Assembly (NCBI GenBank): GCA_017499595.2
Contig: JAFIQS020000014.1
Location: 1 to 64,000, forward strand
Length of the DNA: 64,000 nt
Source: Psilocybe cubensis
Taxonomy: Eukaryota
Direction: 5' to 3'
Position numbers and translations under genes: made by a program. Positions 237-28,729 of the stretch are shown piece by piece (position 1 is the first letter of the stretch; each line of letters begins with the position of its first letter). The notes beneath the pieces were generated by a model. The model ran no database searches and had not been told where the DNA came from. It worked only from the letters and a program-made list of their open reading frames with translations.

Positions 237-311
237 CCTAAACCCTAAACCCTAAACCCTAAACCCTAAACCCTAAACCCTAAACCCTAAACCCTAAACC
301 CTAAACCCTAA
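236..311 (+). repeat. Interstitial telomeric tract
   Basis: (CCCTAAA)n. Confidence 0.95.
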
Positions 312-1802: not shown

Positions 1803-1911
1803 CTTCTTTCTATTTCAAACTCACAGTTTAAACTAGTCGCTCGCACCTCGCTTCGCTCGGTGCTCGCTCCCCCCCTAAACCCAACGACTTTGCTATCACC
1901 CATCAGTTACC

Positions 1912-3070: not shown

Positions 3071-5445
3071 ACGCGCGGTCTACTGTAGCATCATTTACGT
3101 CGGTGAGACCCGCCTTCCCCAACTCTATTCCTGACGATATACTCACCATGACTAAAACAGACGCAGTTTCTTTTGTACACCTCAATACCCCGATTTCATT
3201 CTTATTGGCTGGCCAGTATAGATCTAGTGTACACTGTAGTCCTGGTGTTTCGGTCCCTGTTGATGTAGCAAATGATTTATCTCTTGGACTCAATTATATG
3301 TTTTTTACACTGCCTTCTAAAAATCTGATCATGCAAGCATGGAATGATTTTCAACGAAGAATAAGATGGCGTATCTATTTTTTGTTTAAAGAAGGCATGA
3401 ATAAACCTTTCGATCCAGACTATGGAGTAAGCTCTAAAAAGAAAGAGAAACCTCCAATGTTACCGCAATTTATGGAACTTGGCCTTTCAATGGGACGTCG
3501 GTACGTTATTAAAACGATCGCAAGTATCCCGGAAGAAGCCCTTAAAGAGATGCGAAAGCACGCGTTCTCTCCTAAAAGGGACAAGATCCAAAAGTTTCTT
3601 TTCGATAACAACTATGTTATTACGATGACAGATAAGAATCTTGGCCTCGCGGTGTCTGAACGCGACTGGATATTAAGGAATGAGCTCAATCTTCTTGAAG
3701 ATGAACGCAACTACGAAGAGTTAGAATTCGAAGTTGCGCAAGAAGTTATGAAGAGCAAAATGATTCAGATGCAAACTCTCGCACGTACCGTCGAAGATGA
3801 ACATCTGTTTCTATTTGAACTTGGGTTGTCTCGATTCTTTCTATCGAATGTACCGGAAGACGGATCATCGTTCAAGTATCCTCAATTTCATGGTATACCT
3901 AAAATCCACAAGAAACCTACTGGATTTAGGCCCATAATTCCGTGTCACTCTGTAGTATTTAATCCTGCAGCCAAGTTTGTATCAAAAGAGCTTAAGCCGA
4001 TTATTAAATCGACTCCTTCAATCATTCACGGAACGAAGGATCTCTTTACGAGATTAAGCCAATTGCGTATAGACCCCAAACGACAATGGTATTTTGTCAC
4101 CGGGGATGTAGTTGCTTTCTATCCCAATATTCCGTTGGACTTGTGCATCGAAATCGTTTGTAATATGTACGAGGAATGGTTACTCAACGCTTCGGAAGAG
4201 AACACTGCATTAGCCCATATTAATCCAAATTCGTTAGAGAATAACTTGGTTAAATTGGGCATCTTTAAACGTGCTATCGAGATTGGCAATACGCAATTGA
4301 TAACACAACATGGGTCTAGATATTTTAGACAAAAAAATGGCCTCGCAATGGGCGTCGCGGATTCTCCGGACCTTGCTAACCTCTTTGGAGCCCATTTTGA
4401 AATAAAGTCAAAAATCTTAGACCACCCAAACGTGGCCTTCTATGGAAGGTACATCGACGATTGTTTCGCAATTGTTTACGCCGAGTCCGAAGCACTTGCA
4501 CTTAATCTTATTAAAGAAACAATAAAGTTCGATGGTTGTGTTATCGAATGGGCTGTTTCCTCGTCGGGATGTCAATTTCTCGATGCTTTCATATTCAAGG
4601 AGTCTGGAAAACTTCATTGGAAGCCATTTGTCAAGACAGGAAACAACCGAGAACGAGTTCCATGGGTATCACATCATCCTTTGGACGTCAAACGTGGCGT
4701 CTACATTGGAGAGTTATCCAGGTTAGCCGTGCTATGTAGTACTAAGGAAATCTACATCGGAGCAATTAGAGACCTTAACGCTCTCTATTTGATGCGCGGT
4801 TATCCCGAAAACCTAGTCATGTCTTGGTGTAAGAAGAATATACAAGAACGTTGGGAAAAGCGATTCGCTTTACGAGTCGCAGAGCACGACGAATCCATTC
4901 TTGTACTTAAAACCAGATTTGATCAGGTATGGAATTGGTTTTCAGCTGCTGAACTTGGAAAGACTGTTACCGAGTACTGGTCGGCATGGTATGAACATGC
5001 CGAGAAAGGTCTGTATAGTGCAGACTCGTCCAGACCCCTTATCAAACCAGATCCAAATTACGTTCACGACCTCGATGATGTTCGCCCGGAGCTGTTCACA
5101 CAGATCCTCGTGGACGGAGAAACTGAGTTCGTACCGGATTTGAGGAAGATAGGACTACTCGGAAGTCGTTGGATAGTATCGCGAAAGCGCAATACTAATC
5201 TTTTCGACCTTGCAAATGTGTGGAAGAAAACAGTCTTTCGTAAACTGGATGAAAACATCGCTGAAAAAGGTGGTGTTGTTCCCGAAACTCAAAACGTTAA
5301 TGAAACTTATCATTCTGCTCTAGTTGAAGCTGCTGAACAGATAAGTATCGAAAGTGATAACGAGATAATACTTCATAGACGTTCAATCTCACAAGAGAGG
5401 GAACATCCAGAATTCGGCAGAATATCCAAATTTTACAACCGATGA
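1912..5445 (+). CDS. Penelope-like element ORF1-reverse transcriptase polyprotein (1177 aa), no GIY-YIG endonuclease
   Basis: PLE-type RT motifs FHGIPKIHKKPTGFRPII, TGDVVAFYPNIP, RQKNGLAMGVADSPDLANLF, YGRYIDD, QFLD; helical/coiled-coil-like N-terminus; no GIY-YIG seen at the C-terminus. Confidence 0.95.
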   Translation: MSSQYSAAFSRAMSPTLDALTQAVVNNTVFGVNDEAGRHNALIDELATVVIKKIAECRSVDQVIDCVFFDYRAALREFLLNLASWCDKRETVKASLERLESAVSAGNTPNRLKVKAPEFQLTKEFADAGSAEALRVSTTFSSARDAFQKAINDGAVQAKKDELAFWDDKCALNSCYEAAALIVKATYDDRKSSYKLPVFSTDNKGVRRIAEWVVSPQKKAECSALQTILPAIFSHIKQIVNMRHRALAIKIEKKRTTAATADVEMADATKPGPSIQSLIDKGLNARLKKLNLGSVGKKASFRNPSPIILDTNYYSNYPDFVWPEFVQGSSTSGQESWPFETQVVVDAFAEEASNQGFQQGRQQEEREGESSRQEQRSKGKGKGKSLDARSTVASFTSVRPAFPNSIPDDILTMTKTDAVSFVHLNTPISFLLAGQYRSSVHCSPGVSVPVDVANDLSLGLNYMFFTLPSKNLIMQAWNDFQRRIRWRIYFLFKEGMNKPFDPDYGVSSKKKEKPPMLPQFMELGLSMGRRYVIKTIASIPEEALKEMRKHAFSPKRDKIQKFLFDNNYVITMTDKNLGLAVSERDWILRNELNLLEDERNYEELEFEVAQEVMKSKMIQMQTLARTVEDEHLFLFELGLSRFFLSNVPEDGSSFKYPQFHGIPKIHKKPTGFRPIIPCHSVVFNPAAKFVSKELKPIIKSTPSIIHGTKDLFTRLSQLRIDPKRQWYFVTGDVVAFYPNIPLDLCIEIVCNMYEEWLLNASEENTALAHINPNSLENNLVKLGIFKRAIEIGNTQLITQHGSRYFRQKNGLAMGVADSPDLANLFGAHFEIKSKILDHPNVAFYGRYIDDCFAIVYAESEALALNLIKETIKFDGCVIEWAVSSSGCQFLDAFIFKESGKLHWKPFVKTGNNRERVPWVSHHPLDVKRGVYIGELSRLAVLCSTKEIYIGAIRDLNALYLMRGYPENLVMSWCKKNIQERWEKRFALRVAEHDESILVLKTRFDQVWNWFSAAELGKTVTEYWSAWYEHAEKGLYSADSSRPLIKPDPNYVHDLDDVRPELFTQILVDGETEFVPDLRKIGLLGSRWIVSRKRNTNLFDLANVWKKTVFRKLDENIAEKGGVVPETQNVNETYHSALVEAAEQISIESDNEIILHRRSISQEREHPEFGRISKFYNR
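2806..2866 (+). other. Putative 61-nt GC-AG spliceosomal intron inside the ORF (also 7465-7525, 12608-12668, 17660-17720, 25246-25306, 30368-30428, 35675-35735)
   Basis: AAG|GCAAGT donor, CTAAT branch motifs, CCCAG| acceptor, AT-rich; removal joins codon 298 to the +1 frame ORF ending at 3070. Confidence 0.7.
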
Positions 5446-5630: not shown

Positions 5631-6156
5631 TAGTAGGAAGTAAGGTAGGCGTGTGAACTTCCGAACGGCATGTGATTGTGAAGGGCCGGATCTAATTTAG
5701 TACATGGGAAAAGTTACTTAGTACTTCGGGAAAAGTTCCTTAGTACCGTGGAAACATTTTTGATGGACCGGATCATGAACTGTCCAATTAAGATTCACAA
5801 CAATCAATCATTCTATTGTTTGATTGTTAGGTAAGGACCCAGGTAAGCTATTTATACTCTAGACATGTGAATATTCCCATGTCGCGGTTACTCGGAGCCA
5901 CGTAACCAGAGTAATCTATATCCATGTGATTCACATCACAGTCAATAACCCACGATGTCAAAGAACAAAAGTGTTGGATCCACTTTTGACAGGTTACCAT
6001 GTGCCACATCGACCCGTGACACTCTGTTCATCAGAGACCTGTCTAACTTGACAATAAACATTGACAGATTTGTGATAGTCGGTAAGATACATGACAGCTG
6101 CGCAGCATCACTTCACGCGCTGTCATCGGATGTCTAGAACATTCCTTCTAAGAATA

Positions 6157-6219
6157 GCCACTGAAGAGTCTATAAAGACGAAAGGGCTGGTTGTTGGGAT
6201 CCCCCAACAGCCCTCTGGC
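6157..6219 (+). ncRNA. Type I hammerhead ribozyme, intact (predicted cleavage after C6215)
   Basis: Helix I gcca/tggc, CUGAAGA, helix II gtct/agac, GAAA, helix III gggctg/cagccc, CUC triplet. Other intact copies start at 6399, 10816, 15962, 16596, 21007, 23449, 24182, 28593, 29304, 33714, 34611, 39033. Confidence 0.92.
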
Positions 6220-6290
6220 CTTCTTTCTATTTCAAACTCACAGTTTAAACTAGTCGCTCGCACCTCGCTTCGCTCGGTGCTCGCTCCCAC

Positions 6291-6348
6291 CCTAAACCCT
6301 AAACCCTAAACCCTAAACCCTAAAACCTAAACCCTAAACCCTAAACCC
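6291..6348 (+). repeat. Interstitial telomeric tract between units 1 and 2
   Basis: (CCCTAAA)n with one variant. Confidence 0.93.
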
Positions 6349-9300
6349 ATCACTTCACGCGCTGTCATCGGATGTCTAGAACATTCCTTCTAAGAATAGC
6401 CACTGAAGAGTCTATAAAGACGAAAGGGCTGGTTGTTGGGATCCCCCAACAGCCCTCTGGCCTTCTTTCTATTTCAAACTCACAGTTTAAACTAGTCGCT
6501 CGCACCTCGCTTCGCTCGGTGCTCGCTCCCCCCCTAAACCCAACGACTTTGCTATCACCCATCAGTTACCATGTCATCCCAATACTCTGCTGCATTCTCT
6601 CGTGCCATGTCCCCTACCCTGGACGCACTCACCCAGGCCGTCGTCAACAACACTGTCTTCGGCGTCAACGATGAAGCAGGCCGCCATAACGCTCTTATCG
6701 ACGAGCTGGCCACTGTGGTCATCAAAAAAATAGCTGAGTGCCGCTCCGTTGACCAAGTCATAGACTGCGTCTTTTTTGACTATCGTGCTGCCCTCAGGGA
6801 GTTTCTCCTCAACCTCGCATCGTGGTGCGACAAGAGGGAAACAGTCAAGGCTAGCCTCGAGCGCCTTGAATCTGCCGTTAGCGCAGGCAACACGCCCAAT
6901 CGCCTTAAGGTGAAGGCACCCGAGTTCCAACTTACGAAGGAATTCGCGGATGCCGGGTCAGCGGAGGCTCTTCGAGTCTCCACTACGTTCTCTTCCGCTC
7001 GTGATGCCTTCCAAAAGGCAATTAACGACGGCGCCGTTCAGGCGAAAAAGGACGAGCTGGCTTTTTGGGATGATAAATGCGCGCTCAACTCTTGCTACGA
7101 AGCTGCTGCCCTCATCGTTAAGGCAACTTACGATGATCGCAAATCCAGCTACAAGCTCCCTGTTTTCTCTACAGACAACAAGGGAGTTCGACGTATAGCA
7201 GAGTGGGTAGTGTCTCCGCAAAAGAAAGCCGAATGCAGTGCGCTGCAAACTATACTGCCGGCGATCTTTTCTCATATCAAACAGATTGTCAACATGCGCC
7301 ACCGCGCCTTGGCAATTAAGATTGAGAAAAAGCGGACGACTGCGGCAACAGCCGATGTCGAGATGGCCGATGCGACCAAACCAGGTCCATCGATTCAATC
7401 CCTTATTGATAAGGGCTTGAATGCACGTCTCAAAAAGCTCAACCTTGGATCTGTGGGCAAGAAGGCAAGTTTTCGTAACCCTTCACCCATAATTCTGGAC
7501 ACTAATTATTACTCTAATTACCCAGACTTTGTCTGGCCAGAATTCGTCCAAGGCTCCTCAACCTCAGGCCAGGAAAGCTGGCCCTTCGAAACCCAAGTCG
7601 TCGTCGACGCCTTCGCAGAGGAAGCCTCAAACCAAGGCTTCCAACAAGGTCGACAACAAGAAGAAAGGGAAGGGGAGAGCTCCCGTCAAGAACAACGATC
7701 CAAAGGGAAAGGGAAAGGCAAGAGCCTAGACGCGCGGTCTACTGTAGCATCATTTACGTCGGTGAGACCCGCCTTCCCCAACTCTATTCCTGACGATATA
7801 CTCACCATGACTAAAACAGACGCAGTTTCTTTTGTACACCTCAATACCCCGATTTCATTCTTATTGGCTGGCCAGTATAGATCTAGTGTACACTGTAGTC
7901 CTGGTGTTTCGGTCCCTGTTGATGTAGCAAATGATTTATCTCTTGGACTCAATTATATGTTTTTTACACTGCCTTCTAAAAATCTGATCATGCAAGCATG
8001 GAATGATTTTCAACGAAGAATAAGATGGCGTATCTATTTTTTGTTTAAAGAAGGCATGAATAAACCTTTCGATCCAGACTATGGAGTAAGCTCTAAAAAG
8101 AAAGAGAAACCTCCAATGTTACCGCAATTTATGGAACTTGGCCTTTCAATGGGACGTCGGTACGTTATTAAAACGATCGCAAGTATCCCGGAAGAAGCCC
8201 TTAAAGAGATGCGAAAGCACGCGTTCTCTCCTAAAAGGGACAAGATCCAAAAGTTTCTTTTCGATAACAACTATGTTATTACGATGACAGATAAGAATCT
8301 TGGCCTCGCGGTGTCTGAACGCGACTGGATATTAAGGAATGAGCTCAATCTTCTTGAAGATGAACGCAACTACGAAGAGTTAGAATTCGAAGTTGCGCAA
8401 GAAGTTATGAAGAGCAAAATGATTCAGATGCAAACTCTCGCACGTACCGTCGAAGATGAACATCTGTTTCTATTTGAACTTGGGTTGTCTCGATTCTTTC
8501 TATCGAATGTACCGGAAGACGGATCATCGTTCAAGTATCCTCAATTTCATGGTATACCTAAAATCCACAAGAAACCTACTGGATTTAGGCCCATAATTCC
8601 GTGTCACTCTGTAGTATTTAATCCTGCAGCCAAGTTTGTATCAAAAGAGCTTAAGCCGATTATTAAATCGACTCCTTCAATCATTCACGGAACGAAGGAT
8701 CTCTTTACGAGATTAAGCCAATTGCGTATAGACCCCAAACGACAATGGTATTTTGTCACCGGGGATGTAGTTGCTTTCTATCCCAATATTCCGTTGGACT
8801 TGTGCATCGAAATCGTTTGTAATATGTACGAGGAATGGTTACTCAACGCTTCGGAAGAGAACACTGCATTAGCCCATATTAATCCAAATTCGTTAGAGAA
8901 TAACTTGGTTAAATTGGGCATCTTTAAACGTGCTATCGAGATTGGCAATACGCAATTGATAACACAACATGGGTCTAGATATTTTAGACAAAAAAATGGC
9001 CTCGCAATGGGCGTCGCGGATTCTCCGGACCTTGCTAACCTCTTTGGAGCCCATTTTGAAATAAAGTCAAAAATCTTAGACCACCCAAACGTGGCCTTCT
9101 ATGGAAGGTACATCGACGATTGTTTCGCAATTGTTTACGCCGAGTCCGAAGCACTTGCACTTAATCTTATTAAAGAAACAATAAAGTTCGATGGTTGTGT
9201 TATCGAATGGGCGGTTTCCTCGTCGGGATGTCAATTTCTCGATGCTTTCATATTCAAGGAGTCTGGAAAACTTCATTGGAAGCCATTTGTCAAGACAGGA

Positions 9301-10951
9301 AACAACCGAGAACGAGTTCCATGGGTATCACATCATCCTTTGGACGTCAAACGTGGCGTCTACATTGGAGAGTTATCCAGGTTAGCCGTGCTATGTAGTA
9401 CTAAGGAAATCTACATCGGAGCAATTAGAGACCTTAACGCTCTCTATTTGATGCGCGGTTATCCCGAAAACCTAGTCATGTCTTGGTGTAAGAAGAATAT
9501 ACAAGAACGTTGGGAAAAGCGATTCGCTTTACGAGTCGCAGAGCACGACGAATCCATTCTTGTACTTAAAACCAGATTTGATCAGGTATGGAATTGGTTT
9601 TCAGCTGCTGAACTTGGAAAGACTGTTACCGAGTACTGGTCGGCATGGTATGAACATGCCGAGAAAGGTCTGTATAGTGCAGACTCGTCCAGACCCCTTA
9701 TCAAACCAGATCCAAATTACGTTCACGACCTCGATGATGTTCGCCCGGAGCTGTTCACACAGATCCTCGTGGACGGAGAAACTGAGTTCGTACCGGATTT
9801 GAGGAAGATAGGACTACTCGGAAGTCGTTGGATAGTATCGCGAAAGCGCAATACTAATCTTTTCGACCTTGCAAATGTGTGGAAGAAAACAGTCTTTCGT
9901 AAACTGGATGAAAACATCGCTGAAAAAGGTGGTGTTGTTCCCGAAACTCAAAACGTTAATGAAACTTATCATTCTGCTCTAGTTGAAGCTGCTGAACAGA
10001 TAAGTATCGAAAGTGATAACGAGATAATACTTCATAGACGTTCAATCTCACAAGAGAGGGAACATCCAGAATTCGGCAGAATATCCAAATCTTACAACCG
10101 ATGAAAAGAATACTAGCGCGTAAGGCGTAAAGCATTAGAAAAAAACCCTAACCGTAAGTATTCCTTGCTATAAAGTAACAAACATCTACTTACAAGCAAC
10201 ACTTTGGATTAAATAGCTAAACCTAAACCCTAAACCCTAAACCCTAAACCCTAACCTAACCCCAACCCTAAGCTAACTAAGTCTAACCTTAGTAGGAAGT
10301 AAGGTAGGCGTGTGAACTTCCGAACGGCATGTGATTGTGAAGGGCCGGATCTAATTTAGTACATGGGAAAAGTTACTTAGTACTTCGGGAAAAGTTCCTT
10401 AGTACCGTGGAAACATTTTTGATGGACCGGATCATGAACTGTCCAATTAAGATTCACAACAATCAATCATTCTATTGTTTGATTGTTAGGTAAGGACCCA
10501 GGTAAGCTATTTATACTCTAGACATGTGAATATTCCCATGTCGCGGTTACTCGGAGCCACGTAACCAGAGTAATCTATATCCATGTGATTCACATCACAG
10601 TCAATAACCCACGATGTCAAAGAACAAAAGTGTTGGATCCACTTTTGACAGGTTACCATGTGCCACATCGACCCGTGACACTCTGTTCATCAGAGACCTG
10701 TCTAACTTGACAATAAACATTGACAGATTTGTGATAGTCGGTAAGATACATGACAGCTGCGCAGCATCACTTCACGCGCTGTCATCGGATGTCTAGAACA
10801 TTCCTTCTAAGAATAGCCACTGAAGAGTCTATAAAGACGAAAGGGCTGGTTGTTGGGATCCCCCAACAGCCCTCTGGCCTTCTTTCTATTTCAAACTCAC
10901 AGTTTAAACTAGTCGCTCGCACCTCGCTTCGCTCGGTGCTCGCTCCCCCCC
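6348..10951 (+). mobile_element. Penelope-like element unit 2 (short 5' pLTR, no group I intron)
   Basis: Near-identical to unit 1 but lacking the 929-nt insertion. Confidence 0.92.
6571..10104 (+). CDS. PLE ORF1-RT polyprotein (1177 aa)
   Basis: Same RT motifs as unit 1. Confidence 0.95.
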   Translation: MSSQYSAAFSRAMSPTLDALTQAVVNNTVFGVNDEAGRHNALIDELATVVIKKIAECRSVDQVIDCVFFDYRAALREFLLNLASWCDKRETVKASLERLESAVSAGNTPNRLKVKAPEFQLTKEFADAGSAEALRVSTTFSSARDAFQKAINDGAVQAKKDELAFWDDKCALNSCYEAAALIVKATYDDRKSSYKLPVFSTDNKGVRRIAEWVVSPQKKAECSALQTILPAIFSHIKQIVNMRHRALAIKIEKKRTTAATADVEMADATKPGPSIQSLIDKGLNARLKKLNLGSVGKKASFRNPSPIILDTNYYSNYPDFVWPEFVQGSSTSGQESWPFETQVVVDAFAEEASNQGFQQGRQQEEREGESSRQEQRSKGKGKGKSLDARSTVASFTSVRPAFPNSIPDDILTMTKTDAVSFVHLNTPISFLLAGQYRSSVHCSPGVSVPVDVANDLSLGLNYMFFTLPSKNLIMQAWNDFQRRIRWRIYFLFKEGMNKPFDPDYGVSSKKKEKPPMLPQFMELGLSMGRRYVIKTIASIPEEALKEMRKHAFSPKRDKIQKFLFDNNYVITMTDKNLGLAVSERDWILRNELNLLEDERNYEELEFEVAQEVMKSKMIQMQTLARTVEDEHLFLFELGLSRFFLSNVPEDGSSFKYPQFHGIPKIHKKPTGFRPIIPCHSVVFNPAAKFVSKELKPIIKSTPSIIHGTKDLFTRLSQLRIDPKRQWYFVTGDVVAFYPNIPLDLCIEIVCNMYEEWLLNASEENTALAHINPNSLENNLVKLGIFKRAIEIGNTQLITQHGSRYFRQKNGLAMGVADSPDLANLFGAHFEIKSKILDHPNVAFYGRYIDDCFAIVYAESEALALNLIKETIKFDGCVIEWAVSSSGCQFLDAFIFKESGKLHWKPFVKTGNNRERVPWVSHHPLDVKRGVYIGELSRLAVLCSTKEIYIGAIRDLNALYLMRGYPENLVMSWCKKNIQERWEKRFALRVAEHDESILVLKTRFDQVWNWFSAAELGKTVTEYWSAWYEHAEKGLYSADSSRPLIKPDPNYVHDLDDVRPELFTQILVDGETEFVPDLRKIGLLGSRWIVSRKRNTNLFDLANVWKKTVFRKLDENIAEKGGVVPETQNVNETYHSALVEAAEQISIESDNEIILHRRSISQEREHPEFGRISKSYNR

Positions 10952-11012
10952 TAAAACCCCTAAACCCTAAACCCTAAACCCTAACCCTAAACCCTAAACC
11001 CTAAACCCTAAA
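10951..11012 (+). repeat. Interstitial telomeric tract
   Basis: (CCCTAAA)n with variants. Confidence 0.93.
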
Positions 11013-11602
11013 AGCCGGCGACACTACCGAATTGCTGGGACGTCCTAAAGCTTGTGGGTACCGCCGACCGCTGGAAACAGCCTAGGCACCGGTGGCGACC
11101 GGGTATGGTAACAATCCCCAAGATTCAGCGAAAGCTGGAATGGATAATCAGCAGCGAATCCGTAACGGTCACGCCGACGGAAGCGTTCAACGACTAGGTG
11201 GTAGTGGGGTCTTCGGATCTTAAGATATAGTCTTGGGAGTGGGGAAACCCACATCTGGTATCTAAACCGCGCCTCGCTGCTTACGAGGACGGCCCGAAGT
11301 CCAGAACCGCTTAAAACGCGGGTGACCCGGCCTCCCCTTAGTAAAGGGAGTTAACACAAGGATGGACAAATAGTTCGTCGCCGGAAATGAACCTGTGGCT
11401 GTAATGGCTGATGTGGCGCCCCTTGGTAAAGGGCTTAAAGGGTATTAGCCTGCCATGTCCAATGGCATGAGAGTGTCCCTTGGTAAAGGACTTAATAGGC
11501 AATAGCCTGCTCTTTTGTCATGAGCGGTATGTAGTGATCGTTTGCCTGTACGGTAGCGCCCATTGCTTGCACTGGTCCACGCCCGTAAAAAATCACGAGC
11601 CG
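11013..11602 (+). ncRNA. 5'-truncated second copy of the group I intron (catalytic core to omega-G; P1/IGS missing)
   Basis: Matches 1208-1797 by eye; ends ...cacgagccG|ctggc. Confidence 0.9.
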
Positions 11603-11713
11603 CTGGCTACTTTCCATTTAACTCCCAGTTTAAACTAGTCGCTCGCACCTCGCTTCGCTCGGTGCTCGCTCCCCCCCTAAACCCAACGACTTTGCTATTA
11701 TCCATCAGCCACT

Positions 11714-14700
11714 ATGTCATCTCAATACTCTGCTGCTTTCTCTCGTGCCATGTCCCCCACCCTGGACGCACTCACCCAGGCCGTCGTCAACAACACCGTT
11801 TTCGGCGTCAACGATGAAGCAGGCCGCCATAACGCTCTGATCGACGAGCTGGCCACTGTGGTCATCAAAAAAATAGCTGAGTGCCGCTCCGTTGACCAAG
11901 TCATAGACTGCGTCTTTTTTGACTATCGTGCTGCCCTTAGGGAGTTTCTCCTCAACCTCGCATCGTGGTGCGATAAGAGGGAAACAGTCAAGGCTAGCCT
12001 CGAGCGCCTTGAATCTGCCGTTAGCGCAGGCAACACGCCCAATCGCCTTAAGGTGAAGGCACCCGAGTTCCAACTTACGAAGGAATTCGCGGATGCCGGG
12101 TCAGCGGAGGCTCTTCGAGTCTCCACTACGTTCTCTACCGCTCGTGACGCCTTCCAAAAGGCAATTAACGACGGCGCCATTCAGGCGAAAAAGGACGAGC
12201 TGACTTTTTGGGATGATAAATGCGCACTCAACTCTTGCTACGAAGCTGCTGCCCTCATCGTTAAGGCAACTTACGATGATCGCAAATCCAGCTACAAGCT
12301 CCCTGTTTTCTCTACAGATAACAAGGGAGTTCGACGTATAGCAGAGTGGGTAGTGTCTCCGCAAAAGAAAGCCGAATGCAGTGCGCTGCAAACCATACTG
12401 CCGGCGATCTTTTCTCACATCAAACAAATTGTCAACATGCGCCACCGCGCTTTGGCAATTAAGATTGAGAAAAAGCGGACGACTGCGGCAACAGCCGATG
12501 TCGAGATGGCCGACGCGACCAAACCAGGTCCGTCGATTCAATCCCTTATTGATAAGGGCTTGAATGCACGTCTCAAGAAGCTCAACCTTGGATCTGTGGG
12601 CAAGAAGGCAAGTTTTCGTAACCCTTCACCCATAATTCTGGATACTAATTACTACTCTAATTACCCAGACTTTGTCTGGCCAGAATTCGTCCAAGGCTCC
12701 TCAACCTCAGGCCAAGAAAGCTGGCCCTTCGAAACCCAAGTCGTCGTCGACGCCTTCGCAACGCAAGCCTCAAACCAAGGCTTCCAACAAGGTCGACAAC
12801 AAGAAGAAAGGGAAGGGGAGAGCTCCCGTCAAGAACGATCCAAAGGGAAAGGGAAAGGCAAGAGCCTAGATGCGCGGTCTAATGTAGTACCTTTTACGTC
12901 GGTGAGACCCGCCTTCCCCAACTCTATTCCTGACGATATACTCACCATGACTAAAACAGACGCAGTTTCTTTCGTACACTTACATACTCCAATATCATTC
13001 TTGTTGGCTGGCCAGTATCGTAGTAGTGTACATTGTAGTCCTGGTGTTTCTGTCCCTGTTGATGTAGCAAACGATCTCTCTCTCGGACTTAATTATATGT
13101 TTTTCACTCTGCCTTCTAAAAGTCTGATCATGCAAGCATGGAATGATTTCCAACGAAGAATAAGATGGCGTATCTATTTTTTGTTTAAGGAAGGCATGAA
13201 TAAACCTTTTGATCCAGATTATGGAGTAAGCTCAAAAAAGAAAGAGAAACCTCCTGTATTACCGCAATATATGGAACTTGGCCTTTCGATGGGACGTCGG
13301 TACGTGCAACGCACGATCGCAAGTATCCCGGAAGAAGCCCTTACGGAGATGCGAAAGCACGCGTTCTCTCCTAAAAGGGACAAGATCCGTAAGTTTCTTA
13401 TCGATAACAACTATGTTATTACGATGACAGATAAGAATCTTGGCCTCGCGGTGTCTGAACGCGACTGGATATTAAGGAATGAGCTCAATCTTCTTGAAGA
13501 TGAACGTAATTACGAAGAGTTAGAATTCGAAGTTGCGCAAGAAGTTATGAAGAGCAAAATGATTCAGATGCAAACGCTCGCACGTACTGTCGAAGATGAA
13601 CATCTGTTTCTATTTGAACTTGGGTTGTCTCGATTCTTTCTATCGAATGTACCGGAAGACGGATCATCGTTCAAGTATCCTCAATTTCATGGTATACCTA
13701 AAATCCACAAGAAACCTACTGGATTTAGGCCCATAATTCCGTGTCACTCTGTAGTATTTAATCCTGCAGCCAAGTTTGTATCAAAAGAGCTTAAGCCGAT
13801 TATTAAATCGACTCCTTCAATCATACACGGAACGAAGGATCTCTTTACGAGATTAAGCCAATTGCGTATAGACTCCAAAAGACAATGGTATTTTGTCACT
13901 GGAGATGTAGTTGCTTTCTATCCCAATATTCCGTTGGACTTGTGCATCGAAATCGTTTATAGTATGTACGAGGAATGGTTACTCAACGCTTCGGAAGAAA
14001 ACACTGCATTAGCCCATATTAATCCAAATTCGTTAGAGAATAACTTGGTTAAATTGGGCATCTTTAAACGTGCTATCGAGATTGGCAATACGCAATTGAT
14101 AACACAACATGGGTCTAGATATTTTAGACAAAAAAATGGCCTCGCAATGGGCGTCGCGGATTCTCCGGACCTTGCTAACCTCTTTGGAGCCCATTTTGAA
14201 ATAAAGTCAAAAATCTTAGACCACCCAAACGTGGCCTTCTATGGAAGGTACATCGACGATTGTTTCGCAATTGTTTACGCCGAGTCCGAAGCACTTGCAC
14301 TTAATCTTATTAAAGAAACAATAAAGTTCGATGGTTGTGTTATCGAATGGGCTGTTTCCTCGTCGGGATGTCAATTTCTCGATGCTTTCATATTCAAGGA
14401 GTCTGGAAAACTTCATTGGAAGCCTTTTGTCAAGACAGGAAACAACCGAGAACGAGTTCCATGGGTATCACATCATCCTTTGGACGTCAAACGTGGCGTC
14501 TACATTGGAGAGTTATCCAGGTTAGCCGTGCTATGTAGTACCAAGGAAATCTACATCGGAGCAATTAGAGACCTTAACGCTCTCTATTTGATGCGCGGTT
14601 ATCCCGAAAACCTAGTCATATCTTGGTGTAAGAAGAATATACAAGAACGTTGGGAAAAGCGATTCGCTTTACGAGTCGCAGAGCACGACGAATCCATTCT

Positions 14701-15244
14701 TGTACTTAAAACCAGATTTGATCAGGTATGGAATTGGTTTTCAGCTGCTGAACTTGGAAAAACTGTTACCGAGTACTGGTCGGCATGGTATGAACATGCC
14801 GAGAAAGGTTTGTATAGTGCAGACTCGTCCAGACCCCTTATCAAACCAGATCCAAATTACGTTCACGACCTCGATGATGTTCGCCCGGAGCTGTTCACAC
14901 AGATCCTCGTGGACGGAGAAACTGAGTTCGTACCGGATTTGAGGAAGATAGGACTACTCGGAAGTCGTTGGATAGTATCGCGAAAACGCAATACTAATCT
15001 TTTCGACCTTGCAAATGTGTGGAAGAAAACAGTCTTTCGTAAACTGGATGAAGACATCGCTGAAAAAGGTGGTGTTGTTCCCGAAACTCAAAACGTTAAT
15101 GAAACTTATCATTCTGCTTTAGTTGAAGCTGCTGAGCAGATAAGTATCGAAAGTGATAACGAGATAATACTTCATAGACGTTCAATCTCACAAGAGAGGG
15201 AACATCCAGAATTTGGCAGAATATCCAAATCTTACAACCGATGA
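11714..15244 (+). CDS. PLE ORF1-RT polyprotein (1176 aa)
   Basis: Same RT motifs. Confidence 0.95.
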   Translation: MSSQYSAAFSRAMSPTLDALTQAVVNNTVFGVNDEAGRHNALIDELATVVIKKIAECRSVDQVIDCVFFDYRAALREFLLNLASWCDKRETVKASLERLESAVSAGNTPNRLKVKAPEFQLTKEFADAGSAEALRVSTTFSTARDAFQKAINDGAIQAKKDELTFWDDKCALNSCYEAAALIVKATYDDRKSSYKLPVFSTDNKGVRRIAEWVVSPQKKAECSALQTILPAIFSHIKQIVNMRHRALAIKIEKKRTTAATADVEMADATKPGPSIQSLIDKGLNARLKKLNLGSVGKKASFRNPSPIILDTNYYSNYPDFVWPEFVQGSSTSGQESWPFETQVVVDAFATQASNQGFQQGRQQEEREGESSRQERSKGKGKGKSLDARSNVVPFTSVRPAFPNSIPDDILTMTKTDAVSFVHLHTPISFLLAGQYRSSVHCSPGVSVPVDVANDLSLGLNYMFFTLPSKSLIMQAWNDFQRRIRWRIYFLFKEGMNKPFDPDYGVSSKKKEKPPVLPQYMELGLSMGRRYVQRTIASIPEEALTEMRKHAFSPKRDKIRKFLIDNNYVITMTDKNLGLAVSERDWILRNELNLLEDERNYEELEFEVAQEVMKSKMIQMQTLARTVEDEHLFLFELGLSRFFLSNVPEDGSSFKYPQFHGIPKIHKKPTGFRPIIPCHSVVFNPAAKFVSKELKPIIKSTPSIIHGTKDLFTRLSQLRIDSKRQWYFVTGDVVAFYPNIPLDLCIEIVYSMYEEWLLNASEENTALAHINPNSLENNLVKLGIFKRAIEIGNTQLITQHGSRYFRQKNGLAMGVADSPDLANLFGAHFEIKSKILDHPNVAFYGRYIDDCFAIVYAESEALALNLIKETIKFDGCVIEWAVSSSGCQFLDAFIFKESGKLHWKPFVKTGNNRERVPWVSHHPLDVKRGVYIGELSRLAVLCSTKEIYIGAIRDLNALYLMRGYPENLVISWCKKNIQERWEKRFALRVAEHDESILVLKTRFDQVWNWFSAAELGKTVTEYWSAWYEHAEKGLYSADSSRPLIKPDPNYVHDLDDVRPELFTQILVDGETEFVPDLRKIGLLGSRWIVSRKRNTNLFDLANVWKKTVFRKLDEDIAEKGGVVPETQNVNETYHSALVEAAEQISIESDNEIILHRRSISQEREHPEFGRISKSYNR

Positions 15245-16090
15245 AAAGAATACTAGCGCTTAAGGCGTAAAGCATTAGAAAAAAACCCTAACCGTAAGTA
15301 TTCCTTGCTATAAAGTAACAAACATCTACTTACAAGCAACACATTGGATTGAATAGCTAAACCTAAACCTAAACCCTAAACCCTAAACCCTAAACCCTAA
15401 CCTAACCCCAACCCTAAGCTAACTAAGTCTAACCTTAGTAGGAAGTAAGGTAGGCGTGTGAACTTCCGAACGGCATGTGATTGTGAAGGGCCGGATCTAA
15501 TTTAGTACATGGGAAAAGTTACTTAGTACTTCGGGAAAAGTTCCTTAGTACCGTGGAAACATTTTTGATGGACCGGATCATGAACTGTCCAATTAAGATT
15601 CACAACAATCAATCATTCTATTGTTTGATTGTTAGGTAAGGACCCAGGTAAGTTATTTATACTCTAGACATGTGAATATTCCCATGTCGCGGTTACTCGG
15701 AGCCACGTAACCAGAGTAATCTATATCCATGTGATTCACATCACAGTCAATAACCCACGATGTCAAAGAACAAAAGTGTTGGATCCACTTTTGACAGGTT
15801 ACCATGTGCCACATCGACCCGTGACACTCTGTTCATCAGAGACCTGTCTAACTTGACAATAAACATTGACAGATTTGTGATAGTCGGTAAGATACATGAC
15901 AGCTGCGCAGCATCACTTCACGCGCTGTCATCGGATGTCTAGAACATTCCTTCTAAGAATAGCCACTGAAGAGTCTATAAAGACGAAAGGGCTGGTTGTT
16001 GGGATCCCCCAACAGCCCTCTGGCTACTTTCCATTTAACTCCCAGTTTAAACTAGTCGCTCGCACCTCGCTTCGCTCGGTGCTCGCTCCC

Positions 16091-16171
16091 CCCCTAAACC
16101 CTAAACCCTAAACCCTAAACCCTAAACCCTAAACCCTAAACCCTAAACCCTAAACCCTAAACCCTAAACCC
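16091..16171 (+). repeat. Interstitial telomeric tract
   Basis: (CCCTAAA)n. Confidence 0.93.
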
Positions 16172-19100
16172 TCGGGAAAAGTTCCTTAGTACCGTGGAAA
16201 CATTTTTGATGGACCGGATCATGAACTGTCCAATTAAGATTCACAACAATCAATCAATTGATTGTTAGGTAAGGACCCAGGTAAGCTATTTATACTCTTG
16301 ACATGAGAATATTCCCATGTCACGGTTACTCGGAGCCACGTAACCAGAGTATTTTATATCCATGTGATTCACATCACAGTCAATAACCCACGATGTCAAA
16401 GAACAAAAGTGTTGGATCCACTTTTGACAGGTTACCATGTGCCACATCGACCCGTGACACTCTGTTCATCAGAGATCTGTCTAACTTGACAATAAACATT
16501 GACAGATTTGTGATAGTCGGTAAGATACATGACAGCTGCGCAGCATCACTTCACGCGCTGTCATCGGATGTTCCAGAACATTCCTTCTAAGAATAGCCAC
16601 TGAAGAGTCTATAAAGACGAAAGGGCTGGCTGCTGATAACAATCAACAGCCCTCTGGCCTTCTTTCCATTTAACTCACAGTTTAAACAAGTCGCTCGCAC
16701 CTCGCTTCGCTCGGTGCTCGCTCCCCCCCTAAACCCAACGACTTTGCTATTACCCAACAGCTACTATGTCTTCCACTTACTCTGCTGCCTTCTCTCGTGC
16801 CATGTCCCCCACCCTGGACGCACTCACCCAGGCTGTCGTCAACAACACAGTTTTTGGCGTCAACGACGAAGCTGGCCGCCACAACGCCCTCATCGACGAG
16901 TTGGCCACTGTCGTCATCAAGAAAATAGCTGAGTGCCGCTCCATTGACCAGATTGTAGACTGCGTCTTTTTTGACTATCGTGCTGCCCTTAGGGAGTTTC
17001 TCCTCAACCTCGCATCGTGGTGCGATAAGAGGGAAACAGTCAAGGCTAGCCTCGAGCGCCTTGAACTTGCCGTTAGCGCAGGCAACACCCCCAATCGCCT
17101 TCGGGTGAAGGCTCCCGAGTTCCAACTTACGAAGGAATTCGCGGATGCCGGGTCAGCGGAAGCTCTTCGAGTTTCCTCTACGTTCTCCACCGCTCGTGAT
17201 GTCTTCCAAAAGGCAATCAACGACGGCGCCATTCAGGCGAAAAAGGACGAACTGGCCTTTTGGGATGATAAATGCGCACTCAATAACTGTTATGAAGCTG
17301 CTGCCCTCATCGTTAAGACAACTTACGATGATCGCAAATCCAGCTATAAGCTCCCCGTTTTCTCTACAGACAACAAGGGAGTTCGTCGAATAACAGATTG
17401 GGTAGTGTCACCGCAGAAGAAGGCTGAATGCAGCGCATTGCAAACCATTTTGCCAGCCATCTTCTCTCATATCAAACAGATTGTCAACTTGCGCCACCGC
17501 GCTTTGGCAATCAAGATTGAGAAAAAGCGGTCGACTGCGGCAACAGCCGATGTCGAGATGGCCGATGCGACCAAACCAGGTCCATCGATTCAATCCCTTA
17601 TTGATAAGGGCTTGAATGCACGTCTCAAGAAGCTCAACCTTGGATCTGTGGGCAAGAAGGCAAGTTCTCGTAACCCTTCACCCATAATTCTGGATACTAA
17701 TTACTATTCTAATTACCCAGACTTTGTCTGGCCAGAATTCGTCCAAGGCTCCTCAACCTCAGGCCAAGAAAGCTGGCCCTTCGAAATTCAAACCCTCGTC
17801 GACGCCTTCGCAGAAGAAGCCCCAAACCAAGGCTTCCAACAAGGTCGACAACAAGAAGAAAGGGAAGGGGAGAGCTCCCGTCAAGAACGATCCAAAGGGA
17901 AAGGGAAAGGCAAGAGCCTAGACGCGCGGTCTAATGTAGTACCTTTTACGTCGGTAAGACCCGCCTTCCCCAACTCTATTCCTGACGATATACTCACCAT
18001 GACTAAAACAGACGCAGTTTCTTTTGTACACTTACATACGCCGATCTCATTCTTGTTGGCTGGCCAGTATCGTAGTAGTGTACACTGTAGTCCTGGTGTG
18101 GTGGTCCCTGTAGATATAGCAAATGATTTGTCACTCGGACTCAATTATATGTTTTTTACTCTGCCTTCTCAAAGTCTGATCATGCAAGCATGGAATGATT
18201 TTCAACGAAGAATAAGATGGCGTATCTATTTTTTGTTTAAGGAAGGCATGAACAAACCTTTTGATCCAGATTACGGAGTAAGCTCAAAAAAGAAAGAGAA
18301 ACCTCCAGTATTACCGCAATACATGGAACTTGGCCTTTCGATGGGACGTCGGTACGTGCAACGCACGATCGCAAGTATCCCGGAAGAAGCCCTTACGGAG
18401 ATGCGAAAGCACGCGTTCTCTCCTAAAAGGGACAAGATCCGTAAGTTTCTTATCGATAACAACTATGTTATTACGATGACAGATAAGAATCTTGGCCTCG
18501 CGGTGTCTGAACGCGACTGGATATTAAGGAATGAGCTCAATCTTCTTGAAGATGAACGTAACTATGAAGAGTTAGAATTCGAAGTTGCGCAAGAAGTAAT
18601 GAAGAGCAAAATGATCCAGATGCAAACTCTTGCACGTACCGTCGAAGATGAACATCTGTTTCTATTTGAACTTGGGTTGTCTCGATTCTTTCTATCGAAT
18701 GTACCGGAAGACGGATCATCGTTCAAGTATCCTCAATTTCATGGTATACCTAAAATCCACAAAAAACCTACTGGATTTAGACCCATAATTCCGTGTCACT
18801 CTGTAGTATTTAATCCTGCAGCCAAGTTTGTATCAAAAGAGCTTAAGCCGATTATTAAATCGACTCCTTCAATCATTCACGGAACGAAGGATCTCTTTAC
18901 GAGATTAAGCCAATTGCGTATAGACCCCAAACGACAATGGTATTTTGTCACCGGGGATGTAGTTGCTTTCTATCCCAATATTCCGTTGGACTTGTGCATC
19001 GAAATCGTTTGTAATATGTACGAGGAATGGTTACTCAACGCTTCGGAAGAAAACACTGCATTAGCCCATATTAATCCAAATTCGTTAGAGAATAACTTGG

Positions 19101-21140: not shown

Positions 21141-21217
21141 TAAACCCTAAACCCTAAACCCTAAACCCTAAACCCTAAACCCTAAACCCTAAACCCTAAA
21201 CCCTAAACCCTAACCCT
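21138..21217 (+). repeat. Interstitial telomeric tract
   Basis: (CCCTAAA)n. Confidence 0.93.
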
Positions 21218-23582: not shown

Positions 23583-23599
23583 TAAACCCTAAACCCTAA

Positions 23600-28727: not shown

Positions 28728-28729
28728 AA

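What the first reader, a model, noticed from the sequence alone, without database searches (positions are those of the whole stretch)
11013..11640. Same intron in two element variants and only in upstream pLTRs: possible mobile hyperparasite using the host RT
Seen: the second intron copy looks identical to 1208-1797 yet is followed by a different 3' exon (ctggctactttccatttaactcccag vs ctggccttctttctatttcaaactcacag) and a diverged ORF. In units 1 and 3 the intron is in the upstream pLTR while the same-variant downstream pLTR lacks it. No homing endonuclease ORF is present, and this copy is truncated and telomere-capped within the intron. Inference: intron-containing RNA was reverse transcribed, and the intron spreads by reverse splicing into hammerheads followed by PLE reverse transcription, or is lost from one repeat by splicing. 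Gene conversion is an alternative.
Basis: partly seen in the sequence, partly recalled or inferred. Interest (0 to 1): 0.8.

Follow-up and report, generated by a model that had tools for sequence, protein, structure and literature searches.

The report
Group I intron splitting retroelement hammerhead
A self-splicing (group I) intron, a kind known in cell nuclei only from ribosomal RNA genes, sits inside the small self-cutting RNA of a retroelement that builds a mushroom chromosome end, and it has been copied there through RNA.

Summary
The window is a chromosome end: a (CCCTAAA)n tract, then eight stacked Coprina-type (endonuclease-less Penelope-like) retroelements. A 929-nt ORF-less group I intron (869-1797; Rfam 70.9 bits, cut-off 50) lies between U16.1 and C17 of the hammerhead in unit 1's upstream repeat. 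That is 1 nt from the hammerhead cleavage site. A 10-bp P1 with a U.G wobble marks the 5' splice site, and the intron ends in G. Copy 2 (11013-11602) is 590/590 identical to 1208-1797. It is 5'-truncated, capped by telomere repeats, and followed by a diverged 3' exon and ORF.

Reverse transcription of unspliced element RNA is well supported. The shared intron does not show independent invasion of two variants. Units 1 and 3 are mosaics, and the same sharp identity break at the hammerhead site occurs in unit 3's intron-less downstream repeat. "Upstream only" is 2 of 7 versus 0 of 8 sites (P=0.2).

Two further observations point to RNA-level turnover. Unit 2, nearly identical to unit 1, lacks the intron precisely. 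Independent DNA reads contain an exact head-to-tail intron junction (1797->869). No RNA data were available. Seven literature searches found no nuclear group I intron outside rDNA.

The parts
1..165 (.). Terminal telomere tract, 23 perfect CCCTAAA units (G-strand TTTAGGG); the chromosome end is at position 1
306..868 (+). Unit 1 upstream repeat ('A part') ending in the 5' portion of the hammerhead: helix I strand GCCA 811-814, core CUGAAGAG 815-822, helix II, CGAAA 833-837, helix III 838-867, U16.1 = U868. This is the 5' exon of the intron
869..1797 (+). Complete group I intron, 929 nt, ORF-less, 54% G+C against 43-46% in its flanks. Its first 2 nt (869-870) pair in P1, whose 5' strand 861-870 begins in the 5' exon. 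The P1-loop insertion is 871-1155 and the internal guide sequence UGGGGGUUGU is 1156-1165. P2/P2.1 occupy 1166-1214 and the P3-P9 core 1215-1449. The 3' extension 1450-1797 carries direct repeats. The terminal G is 1797
1798..1882 (+). 3' exon, variant 'a': hammerhead C17 (1798), helix I strand UGGC (1799-1802), then an 80-nt tail ending in C-rich/telomere-complementary sequence
1912..5445 (+). Unit 1 ORF, 1177 aa, intact. It is 98-99% identical to proteins that sources name reverse-transcriptase-domain/hypothetical proteins of Psilocybe cubensis. A YIDD motif is visible
5656..6299 (+). Unit 1 downstream repeat with an uninterrupted hammerhead (core at 6161). Its A part is 559/559 identical to the upstream A part, and it has no intron
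6348..10959 (+). Unit 2. It is 5'-truncated 109 nt before the hammerhead site and capped by telomere repeats. It differs from unit 1 by 3 substitutions and 1 indel. Its upstream hammerhead (core at 6403) lacks exactly the 929 nt
10948..11012 (.). Internal telomere tract that caps unit 3
11013..11602 (+). Intron copy 2 (the finding): the 3' 590 nt of the intron, 100% identical to 1208-1797. It starts inside P2.1, so it lacks P1, the guide sequence and the 5' splice site and cannot splice
11603..16101 (+). Rest of unit 3: 3' exon variant 'b', an intact ORF 11714-15244 (1176 aa), and a downstream repeat 15461-16101. That repeat has an A part 99.8% identical to unit 1's, an intron-less hammerhead (core at 15966) and the variant-b tail
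16172..39220 (+). Five older units: U4 16172-21147, U5 21218-23589, U6 23589-28733, U7 28724-33854, U8 33858-39173. All are intron-less. They are followed by the old telomere tract 39163-39220 and then unique subtelomeric DNA

Best explanation
A 929-nt ORF-less group I intron (IC1-like; the subgroup name is from recall) lives in the sense strand of a telomere-attaching, endonuclease-less Penelope-like retroelement of the Coprina type. It is inserted between U16.1 and C17 of the hammerhead ribozyme of the element's upstream repeat. Its guide sequence pairs with the invariant 3' strand of hammerhead helix III, so the two ribozymes compete for the same RNA. The hammerhead can only assemble after splicing (inferred).

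The intron most likely entered once by reverse splicing into element RNA, and the element's own reverse transcriptase fixed it in DNA (inferred). Since then it travels as a passenger. When unspliced RNA is copied onto the chromosome end, the new unit keeps the intron, as in units 1 and 3. When spliced RNA or an intron-less template is copied, the unit lacks it precisely, as in unit 2.

Copy 2 is the remnant of such a retro-copy. Either the cDNA stopped at intron position 340 (window 1208), or the end later eroded to that point, and telomerase then capped it (the structure is shown; the order of events is inferred). The intron appears in two element 'variants' because this family is mosaic. The block 'A part + intron' is shared between units 1 and 3, and the break point at the hammerhead site is a general recombination or template-switch point of the family.
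For: Group I identity:
- RF00028 scores 70.9 and 71.0 bits against a cut-off of 50.
- A 10-bp P1 joins 861-870 to 1156-1165, with U868.G1158 at the splice site, directly 5' of P2. It appears in the MFE and centroid folds. Only 20 of 5000 shuffles reach it.
- The intron ends in G1797.
- Intron-less sites differ by exactly 929 nt. In independent raw DNA reads, 194 reads join 868 to 1798.
- G+C is 54% against 43-46% in the flanks.

Hammerhead:
- The core is present at 14 of 14 repeat sites.
- The Rfam alignment places cleavage after CUC, so the intron lies 1 nt upstream of the cleavage site.
- The target ACAGCCCTC occurs only at these 14 sites in the 64 kb.

Retro-copying:
- The sense-strand units are stacked on a telomere and variably 5'-truncated, at unit-1 coordinates 760, 1208, 380 and 3924. 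Each is capped by CCCTAAA tracts.
- Passages of PMC8557442 describe this attachment mode for Athena and Coprina.

Passenger rather than invader:
- Units 1 and 3 differ by 0/590 in the intron and 1/559 in the A part.
- They differ by 9.65% in the 3' exon plus leader and 8.2% in the downstream 3' exon that has no intron.
- ORF divergence is 1.2-7.25% by region.
- In two other organism labels the intron differs from the window about as little as the A part does. For X9: 6/767 against 2/531. For X10: 8/561 against 1/464.

Long residence: one strain holds several intron haplotypes, for example 1010 T>C in 61 of 93 reads and 1564 A>C in 55 of 112.
Against: - There is no RNA evidence. The only runs guessed to be RNA held next to none of the intron's words, and the one that was laid covered only 1818-1879. 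Splicing in vivo is therefore not shown.
- No relatives of the intron were found. Covariation, origin and age could not be tested.
- Unit 3's upstream flank is lost to the truncation, so block sharing against a fresh reverse-splicing event cannot be told apart for this copy.
- The head-to-tail intron junction in DNA (9 reads, 7 start places) suggests the intron RNA does more than ride along.
- Precise intron loss in unit 2 could equally come from gene conversion by an intron-less repeat.
- Pfam found no family in the ORF and a profile search found no solved structure. The reverse-transcriptase assignment rests on source names, precomputed Pfam labels of near-identical proteins and the YIDD motif.
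Confidence: 0.58

Rival explanations
1. Active hyperparasite. Excised or circular intron RNA repeatedly reverse-splices into hammerhead sites of different element variants, and each event is fixed at a chromosome end by the element's reverse transcriptase. Units 1 and 3 would then be two separate invasions.
For: - The intron copies are identical (590/590), while the 3' exon diverges from base +6.
- The target ACAGCCCU|C is invariant in 14 of 14 hammerheads, so every variant is a possible target.
- There is no endonuclease, so mobility would have to be at the RNA level.
- An exact head-to-tail junction 1797->869 occurs in DNA reads of another sample: 9 reads, 7 starts, 74 nt on the shorter side. 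This is what reverse transcription of a full-length intron circle, or reverse splicing into an occupied site, would leave.
- Passages of PMC3679873 state that full-length circles can integrate in vitro.
Against: - The same identity break at the hammerhead site exists without an intron, in unit 3's downstream repeat.
- The A part is as conserved as the intron between the two units.
- Occupancy is low: 1 of 14 intact hammerhead sites in the window. Intron depth is about 6-10% of repeat depth in raw reads of another sample.
- Intron divergence between organism labels resembles that of the adjoining A part.
Confidence: 0.28
2. Inert relic. The intron entered once but no longer splices. It is now carried purely as DNA/RNA cargo, and presence or absence among units comes from gene conversion or unequal exchange between intron-bearing and intron-less repeats in a recombining subtelomere.
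For: - Mosaic units show frequent exchange.
- There is no RNA evidence for splicing.
- The intron has unusually large peripheral additions: a 285-nt P1 loop and a 348-nt 3' extension with direct repeats. The RNA fold z-score is unremarkable.
Against: - All defining core elements are intact, and the model score is well above threshold.
- All 4 variant positions seen in the core among other samples lie at unpaired or wobble positions: 1234, 1392 and 1429, and 1413 U>C, which turns a G.U pair of P8 into G-C. This is my reading.
- The head-to-tail junction uses both exact splice-site boundaries, which DNA recombination would not produce with only 1 nt of shared sequence.
- Intron-bearing unit 1 is the youngest full-length addition and has an intact ORF.
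Confidence: 0.11
3. DNA-level homing. A homing endonuclease supplied in trans, for example from an rDNA intron, cuts the hammerhead DNA site and the intron is copied in by repair.
For: Homing is the efficient known route for nuclear group I introns (PMC3679873 passages). It leaves precise presence/absence alleles.
Against: - There is no endonuclease gene in the intron.
- The site is not an rDNA site.
- Homing would be expected to fill most of the 14 identical target sites, but 13 are empty.
- Copy 2's truncation and capping are signs of a retro-copy.
Confidence: 0.03

Closest known systems
Nuclear all-ribozyme group I introns of rDNA (IC1 type, e.g. the Tetrahymena LSU intron)
   Same: Complete P1-P9 core. 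U.G wobble at the 5' splice site. Terminal G. P2/P2.1 and a long P5 extension. J8/7-P7 sequence AAGAUAUAGUC. No ORF. Optional among copies. The subgroup features are from recall.
   Different: It is not in rDNA. The exons are the two halves of a hammerhead ribozyme in a telomeric retroelement. It has a 285-nt insertion in the P1 loop and a 348-nt 3' extension. Reviews state that all known nuclear group I introns are in rDNA (PMC3679873 passages; PMC8395846 and PMC9223047, abstract starts in the listing).
Coprina/Athena endonuclease-deficient Penelope-like elements with hammerheads in their repeats
   Same: Stacked on telomeres in sense orientation, 5'-truncated and capped by telomeric repeats. 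They carry reverse-complement telomere repeats beside a hammerhead. The hammerhead is the fungal type I form with a large helix III (PMC8557442 passages; PMC4209133 passages).
   Different: None of the papers read or found mentions a group I intron in such an element.
Spliceosomal introns retained in Penelope-like elements
   Same: A retroelement that keeps an intron through its RNA copying cycle (Arkhipova et al. 2003, seen only as cited in PMC4209133).
   Different: Here the intron is a self-splicing ribozyme, and it sits in a non-coding ribozyme rather than in the ORF.
Reverse-splicing pathway of group I intron transposition (Woodson; Birgisdottir and Johansen; Bhattacharya)
   Same: An endonuclease-less intron at a new site whose 5' flank matches its guide sequence, which is the pattern this pathway predicts (PMC3679873 passages; PMC1299323, abstract start).
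   Different: The review says the reverse-transcription and integration steps have never been shown. Here the target RNA is itself the template of a reverse transcriptase that attaches cDNA to chromosome ends, so both steps are supplied.
Group I intron inside a phage DGR template repeat
   Same: A group I intron inside the RNA template of a retroelement.
   Different: That case is prokaryotic, and its intron is evidently spliced out before copying. Here unspliced RNA was copied into DNA. I did not test that finding.

Membership tests
Group I intron (Rfam RF00028) | Conserved catalytic core P3-P9 scored by the covariance model at or above the curated threshold | tested here: met
   70.9 bits (1153-1449) and 71.0 bits (copy 2) against a cut-off of 50, E about 5e-16. 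These are the only 2 matches in the window
Group I intron (Rfam RF00028) | P1 helix between the 5' exon and an internal guide sequence, with a U.G wobble at the 5' splice site | tested here: met
   861-870 pairs with 1156-1165 over 10 bp, with U868.G1158, immediately 5' of P2. 20 of 5000 shuffles reach 10 bp
Group I intron (Rfam RF00028) | Terminal guanosine at the 3' splice site, and exact excision boundaries | tested here: met
   G1797. Intron-less sites lack exactly 869-1797, with a 1-nt ambiguity. In raw DNA reads, 194 reads join 868->1798 and 9 reads join 1797->869
Group I intron (Rfam RF00028) | Guanosine-binding site in P7 | tested here: met
   The J6/7-P7 segment GUUCAACGACUA and the J8/7-P7' segment AAGAUAUAGUCU align to the consensus with high posterior probability. 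This is by alignment only
Group I intron (Rfam RF00028) | Self-splicing or protein-assisted splicing of the RNA | not testable with these tools
   No RNA run held the intron
Nuclear rDNA group I introns | Inserted in an SSU or LSU rRNA gene | tested here: not met
   The window has no rRNA match. Both exons are retroelement repeat sequence
Mobile (homing) group I introns | Encodes a homing endonuclease | tested here: not met
   The longest frame is 112 aa. The 7 longest frames gave no Pfam hit better than E 0.11
Twin-ribozyme group I introns | A second (lariat-capping) ribozyme inside the intron | tested here: not met
   A permissive Rfam scan of 780-1900 found only Intron_gpI, a weak suhB match (E 0.084) and the hammerhead piece
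Coprina-type EN-deficient Penelope-like element | Sense-oriented, 5'-truncated copies attached to and capped by telomeric repeats | tested here: met
   Eight units lie between CCCTAAA tracts, with 5' ends at different unit positions
Coprina-type EN-deficient Penelope-like element | Hammerhead ribozyme in the flanking direct repeats | tested here: inconclusive
   The CUGAAGAG...CGAAA core with helices I-III is present at 14 of 14 sites. Rfam hammerhead models score below threshold: RAGATH-1-hammerhead 25.3 bits against 56.3, E 0.018. Cleavage was not tested
Coprina-type EN-deficient Penelope-like element | Penelope/telomerase-like reverse transcriptase without a GIY-YIG endonuclease | tested here: inconclusive
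   Pfam returned 0 families for the ORF, even at E<=10, and a PDB profile search returned 0. Near-identical proteins carry a source name 'Reverse transcriptase domain-containing protein' and precomputed PF00078. A YIDD motif is visible. No phylogeny was made

The most novel reading that the evidence does not exclude
The intron is an active ribozyme-only hyperparasite of a retrotransposon. Free or full-length-circular intron RNA reverse-splices into the hammerhead of element RNAs, and the element's telomere-primed reverse transcriptase writes it into chromosome ends. This would be the first natural system showing the complete reverse-splicing, reverse-transcription and integration route that has been postulated for group I intron transposition for over 30 years. 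The head-to-tail intron junction in genomic DNA would be its footprint. By splitting the hammerhead, the intron would also decide whether the element RNA keeps its promoter-bearing 5' repeat.
Probability: 0.3. Interest if true: 0.92.

Novelty: new variant of a known kind. Interest (0 to 1): 0.8.

Why it matters
Reviews state that every known nuclear group I intron sits in rDNA. They also state that the reverse-transcription and integration steps of the reverse-splicing route of intron spread have never been demonstrated (PMC3679873 passages).

This intron is an exception in both respects:
- It is in a nuclear, non-ribosomal transcript.
- That transcript is the template of a reverse transcriptase that adds cDNA to chromosome ends, so both missing steps are built in.
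- At least one copy, the 5'-truncated and telomere-capped one, clearly passed through RNA into DNA.

It is also a natural case of one ribozyme interrupting another. Splicing should rebuild a hammerhead whose cleavage site lies 1 nt from the ligation junction. That gives a simple, testable RNA switch.

The system is small and multi-copy, and the organism is a cultivable mushroom. The open question can therefore be tested directly by RT-PCR, in vitro splicing and long-read telomere assemblies.

Tried and rejected
- Whole-genome search: no genome is held for this window. A genome-wide census of intron copies and a comparison with host rDNA introns could not be done.
- Metagenome scan with a 21-letter P7/P3' motif. 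The best matches share only 33-52-nt core segments at 79-88% identity (44 of 123 loci had any BLAST hit). None of the 123 has the element's ORF or a hammerhead core. The 10 best hold only group I introns and no rRNA match. No relative was found, so no tree was made. This used the single metagenome scan, so related Coprina loci could not be fetched.
- RNA evidence: the runs guessed to be RNA held next to none of the intron's words. The one that was laid (X19) covered only 1818-1879. Nothing can be said about expression or splicing.
- Pfam on the 1177-aa ORF found 0 families, even at E<=10. A PDB profile search of a 13-sequence alignment found 0 hits.
- Earlier notes of this scan: nothing by place or by sequence, and nothing holding all the search words.
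- Gladyshev and Arkhipova 2007 is not held. The attachment mechanism is cited from passages of PMC8557442 instead.
- Considered and rejected: random capture of an abundant intron RNA by template jumping. The 10-bp guide/exon match, the U.G wobble and the terminal G at exact boundaries argue for ribozyme-made junctions.
- Considered and rejected: assembly artefact. Ten runs under four organism labels hold at least half of the intron's words, and raw reads cover the intron continuously.
- 'Upstream only' as a significant pattern: P=0.2.
Full report
WHAT THE WINDOW IS

The window starts at a chromosome end. Positions 1-165 are 23 perfect CCCTAAA units. Up to 39220 there follows a stack of eight copies of one retroelement, all sense on the + strand and separated by CCCTAAA tracts. 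After an old internal telomere tract (39163-39220) comes unique DNA.

Each full unit has a 1176-1177-aa ORF. Its closest proteins (98-99% identity) are named by their sources as reverse-transcriptase-domain or hypothetical proteins of Psilocybe cubensis. Hundreds of relatives at 43-72% identity lie on contigs of mostly 3-6 kb. The ORF is flanked by direct repeats that contain a hammerhead core (CUGAAGAG ... CGAAA). I found 14 such cores.

The units are 5'-truncated at different points, at unit-1 coordinates 760, 1208, 380 and 3924. Each is capped by telomere repeats. This is the architecture described for endonuclease-less Penelope-like elements (Athena, Coprina), which attach to G-overhangs with the help of reverse-complement telomere repeats next to a hammerhead (passages of PMC8557442). 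Fungal elements of this kind are reported to carry type I hammerheads with a large helix III (passages of PMC4209133), as is the case here.

There is a caveat on the protein. A profile search found no solved structure. The reverse-transcriptase assignment therefore rests on source names and precomputed labels and on the visible YIDD motif.

CHECKING THE OBSERVATION

- Rfam finds exactly two matches at gathering threshold in the 64 kb, both to the group I intron model: 70.9 bits at 1153-1449 and 71.0 bits at copy 2, against a cut-off of 50.
- BLAST of the intron finds only these two places. 11013-11602 equals 1208-1797 at 590 of 590 bases.
- Copy 2 begins directly after the telomere tract 10948-11012.
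- Downstream of copy 2, the 3' exon differs from unit 1's from the sixth base onward. The first 109 nt are 92.7% identical, and the units differ at 115 positions over about 4.5 kb.
- The downstream repeats of units 1 and 3 have uninterrupted hammerheads with the matching 3'-exon variant (cores at 6161 and 15966).
- There is no endonuclease. Of 22 stop-to-stop frames of 30 aa or more, the longest is 112 aa. The 7 longest gave nothing better than E=0.11 in Pfam.

TRUE EXTENT AND ANATOMY OF THE INTRON

Comparison with intron-less repeats shows that the insertion is 869-1797, 929 nt, not 1208-1797. The 5' exon ends ...ACAGCCCU, and the intron ends ...GAGCCG. This is the canonical U before the intron and G at its end, with a 1-nt ambiguity because a C lies on both sides.

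- P1. Bases 861-870 pair with UGGGGGUUGU at 1156-1165 over 10 bp, with U868.G1158 at the splice site. This pairing appears in both the MFE and centroid folds. A 7-bp form persists when the competing hammerhead helix III is included in the fold. Only 20 of 5000 shuffles of the 335 nt upstream of P3 give 10 bp. The guide sequence lies directly 5' of P2, where it belongs.
- P1 loop. Between the splice site and the guide sequence is a 285-nt insertion in the P1 loop.
- Core. P2/P2.1 follow at 1166-1214, then the P3-P9 core at 1215-1449. The P7 strands are almost letter-perfect against the consensus.
- 3' extension. A 348-nt extension carries direct repeats, 34 nt twice and a 15-nt hairpin motif three times.
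- No second ribozyme was found.
- Composition. G+C is 54% throughout the 929 nt, against 43-46% in the element and the subtelomere. This fits a foreign block with exactly these borders.

WHERE IT SITS

The Rfam alignment of an intact repeat to a hammerhead model is below threshold (25.3 bits against 56.3, E 0.018). It nonetheless shows helices I-III and the cleavage triplet CUC. By this alignment, U868 is U16.1 and the next C is C17.

The intron therefore lies 1 nt upstream of the hammerhead cleavage site. Its guide sequence pairs with the 3' strand of helix III. The 9-mer ACAGCCCTC occurs only at the 14 hammerhead sites in the window. In the precursor RNA the two ribozymes compete for the same strand, and helix I is split by 929 nt. 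The hammerhead should be able to form only after splicing. This is inferred and not tested.

IS THE INTRON SHARED BY TWO VARIANTS BECAUSE IT MOVED?

Units 1 and 3 are mosaics. Divergence by region is:

| Region | Divergence |
|---|---|
| 3' exon plus leader | 9.65% |
| ORF, three successive parts | 2.3%, 7.25%, 1.2% |
| Downstream A part | 0.18% (1 of 559) |
| Downstream 3' exon | 8.2% |

The longest difference-free run outside the intron is 425 nt. The A part is identical over 370 and 290 nt on either side of its one difference.

So the sequence just upstream of the hammerhead site is as conserved between the two units as the intron is. The jump to about 8% divergence happens at the same point in unit 3's downstream repeat, where there is no intron. 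Across the array, helix III loop types and 3'-exon types are also re-assorted. Type A occurs with tails a and b, tail c occurs with types B and C, and type B occurs with tails c and d.

The break next to the 3' splice site is therefore a property of the element family and does not mark intron movement. Its cause could be recombination in the subtelomere, or template switching at the end of hammerhead-cleaved RNA. Unit 3's own upstream flank is lost, so the two models cannot be separated for this copy.

The 'upstream only' pattern is 2 of 7 against 0 of 8 sites, P=0.2. In this element type both repeats are copied from the template independently, so no special mechanism is needed to keep the pattern.

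EVIDENCE THAT RNA-LEVEL EVENTS DO OCCUR

First, copy 2 is a sense-oriented, 5'-truncated, telomere-capped copy in a retro-array. The intron therefore passed through element RNA into DNA. Either the cDNA stopped there or the end eroded later.

Second, unit 2 lies between the two intron-bearing units. It differs from unit 1 by 3 substitutions and 1 indel in about 4.5 kb. It keeps 109 nt of 5' exon and lacks exactly the 929 nt. This is what copying of spliced RNA would give. Gene conversion by an intron-less repeat would give the same result.

Third, public reads add independent evidence.
- The intron's words are held at 0.5 or more in 10 of the 20 listed runs, under four organism labels.
- In raw DNA reads of another sample (X17), depth summed over both read directions is about 1060-1570 on the A part, about 78-118 on the intron and about 330-395 on the ORF start. 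The intron therefore occupies roughly a quarter of ORF-bearing 5' ends.
- That sample carries several intron haplotypes: 1010 T>C in 61 of 93 reads, 1062 in 40 of 114, 1413 in 32 of 83, 1564 in 55 of 112, 1767 in 28 of 101, and a TT insertion behind 921 in 27 of 116.
- 194 reads join 868 to 1798, which is the intron-less form.
- 9 reads from 7 start places, with 74 nt on the shorter side, join 1797 back to 869. This is an exact head-to-tail intron junction present as DNA.

DNA recombination would not produce that junction with a single shared base. It is the junction of a full-length intron circle. It is also the junction expected from a second intron reverse-spliced into an occupied site. Full-length circles are a general product of nuclear group I introns and can integrate in vitro (passages of PMC3679873; abstract start of PMC6274462). 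I treat this as suggestive evidence, from one run and 9 reads, that the ribozyme is active and that its products are reverse-transcribed.

Fourth, contigs of two other organism labels show the intron at the same site. One 574-nt contig of X10 spans 1280-1840. The intron diverges little from the window, about as little as the A part:

| Run | Intron | A part |
|---|---|---|
| X9 | 6 of 767 | 2 of 531 |
| X10 | 8 of 561 | 1 of 464 |

ORF pieces differ by 2-10%, but paralogous variants confound that comparison.

The four core positions that vary among samples are 1234, 1392, 1413 and 1429. By my reading of the Rfam alignment they are unpaired, or they turn a G.U pair into G-C. This is weak evidence of constraint. 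The table omits 104 lesser differences.

WHAT COULD NOT BE DONE

- No genome is held for the window, so there was no census of intron copies and no comparison with host rDNA introns.
- The one metagenome scan found no relative. It returned 123 loci sharing only core segments, none with the element's ORF or a hammerhead.
- No RNA run held the intron.

COMPARISON WITH WHAT IS KNOWN

Reviews state that all known nuclear group I introns interrupt rRNA genes (PMC3679873 passages; PMC8395846 and PMC9223047, abstract starts). [quoted passage not shown]

Penelope-like elements are known to retain spliceosomal introns (cited in PMC4209133). Seven full-text searches and the passages read gave no report of a group I intron in such an element, or anywhere in a nucleus outside rDNA. 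The library does not hold most subscription-journal papers. It is an analogy that I did not test.

VERDICT

The thing is real and unusual. It is a complete, endonuclease-less group I intron in a nuclear non-rDNA transcript. It splits the hammerhead of a telomere-building retroelement 1 nt from the cleavage site, and it has been retro-copied with its host.

The specific claim that the intron hopped between two variants is not supported by the identity pattern. The wider idea that it depends on the element's reverse transcriptase is the best explanation of its origin and persistence. Ongoing reverse-splicing spread remains a live possibility, which I put at about 0.3.

Noticed in passing
window 166-235: Between two telomere tracts lies a 70-nt piece of the element. 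It starts 5 nt after the hammerhead cleavage site and runs to the telomere-complementary tail. It looks like a cDNA of the short 3' product of hammerhead cleavage in a downstream repeat, which would be indirect evidence that the hammerhead cuts in vivo.
   Followed up: partly
reads of run X17 laid on window:306-2400: DNA reads (9 reads, 7 start places) join intron end 1797 to intron start 869, an exact head-to-tail intron junction. This could be a tandem intron or a reverse-transcribed full-length intron circle. It is sub-stoichiometric, about a tenth of intron depth.
   Followed up: partly
window 1783-1797 versus 16638-16653 (and the same site in units 6 and 8): The last 15 nt of the intron (AAUCACGAGCCG...) resemble the 5' exon of the B-type hammerhead (AAUCAACAGCCCU...), so BLAST alignments run from the 3' exon into the intron end. 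This could be chance or a 5'-exon mimic. It was not analysed further.
   Followed up: no
window 1-165 and all internal tracts: The telomere repeat is the 7-nt CCCTAAA/TTTAGGG ('plant-type') unit, although the closest proteins are from an agaric mushroom. From recall, most fungi use TTAGGG. This was not checked in the literature.
   Followed up: no
window 23589, 28724, 33858 (starts of units 6-8): These units begin inside the 3' UTR or telomere-like region of a preceding unit (unit-1 coordinates 5558, 5569, 5411) and have little or no telomere tract between them. They look like copies of read-through transcripts of tandem units, or products of unequal exchange.
   Followed up: partly
window 1529-1705: The intron's 3' extension carries direct repeats, 34 nt twice at 57-nt spacing. 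These include a 15-nt hairpin motif CCCUUGGUAAAGGG present three times. Similar repeat-bearing P9 extensions are described for host-dependent myxomycete rDNA introns (PMC3679873 passage).
   Followed up: no
window 1912-5445 (P0001): hmmscan against Pfam-A returned no family for this 1177-aa ORF or its 98%-identical relative, even at E<=10. The precomputed table lists PF00078, PF28514 and PF26215 for the relative. The discrepancy is unexplained.
   Followed up: partly
window 1798-39173, units 1-8: The units are strongly mosaic. Pairwise mismatch density changes abruptly along the element, for example units 1 and 3 at 0-2 per 200 nt in the 3' half against 12-19 per 200 nt in parts of the 5' half. 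Helix III loop types and 3'-exon types are re-assorted at the hammerhead site.
   Followed up: partly
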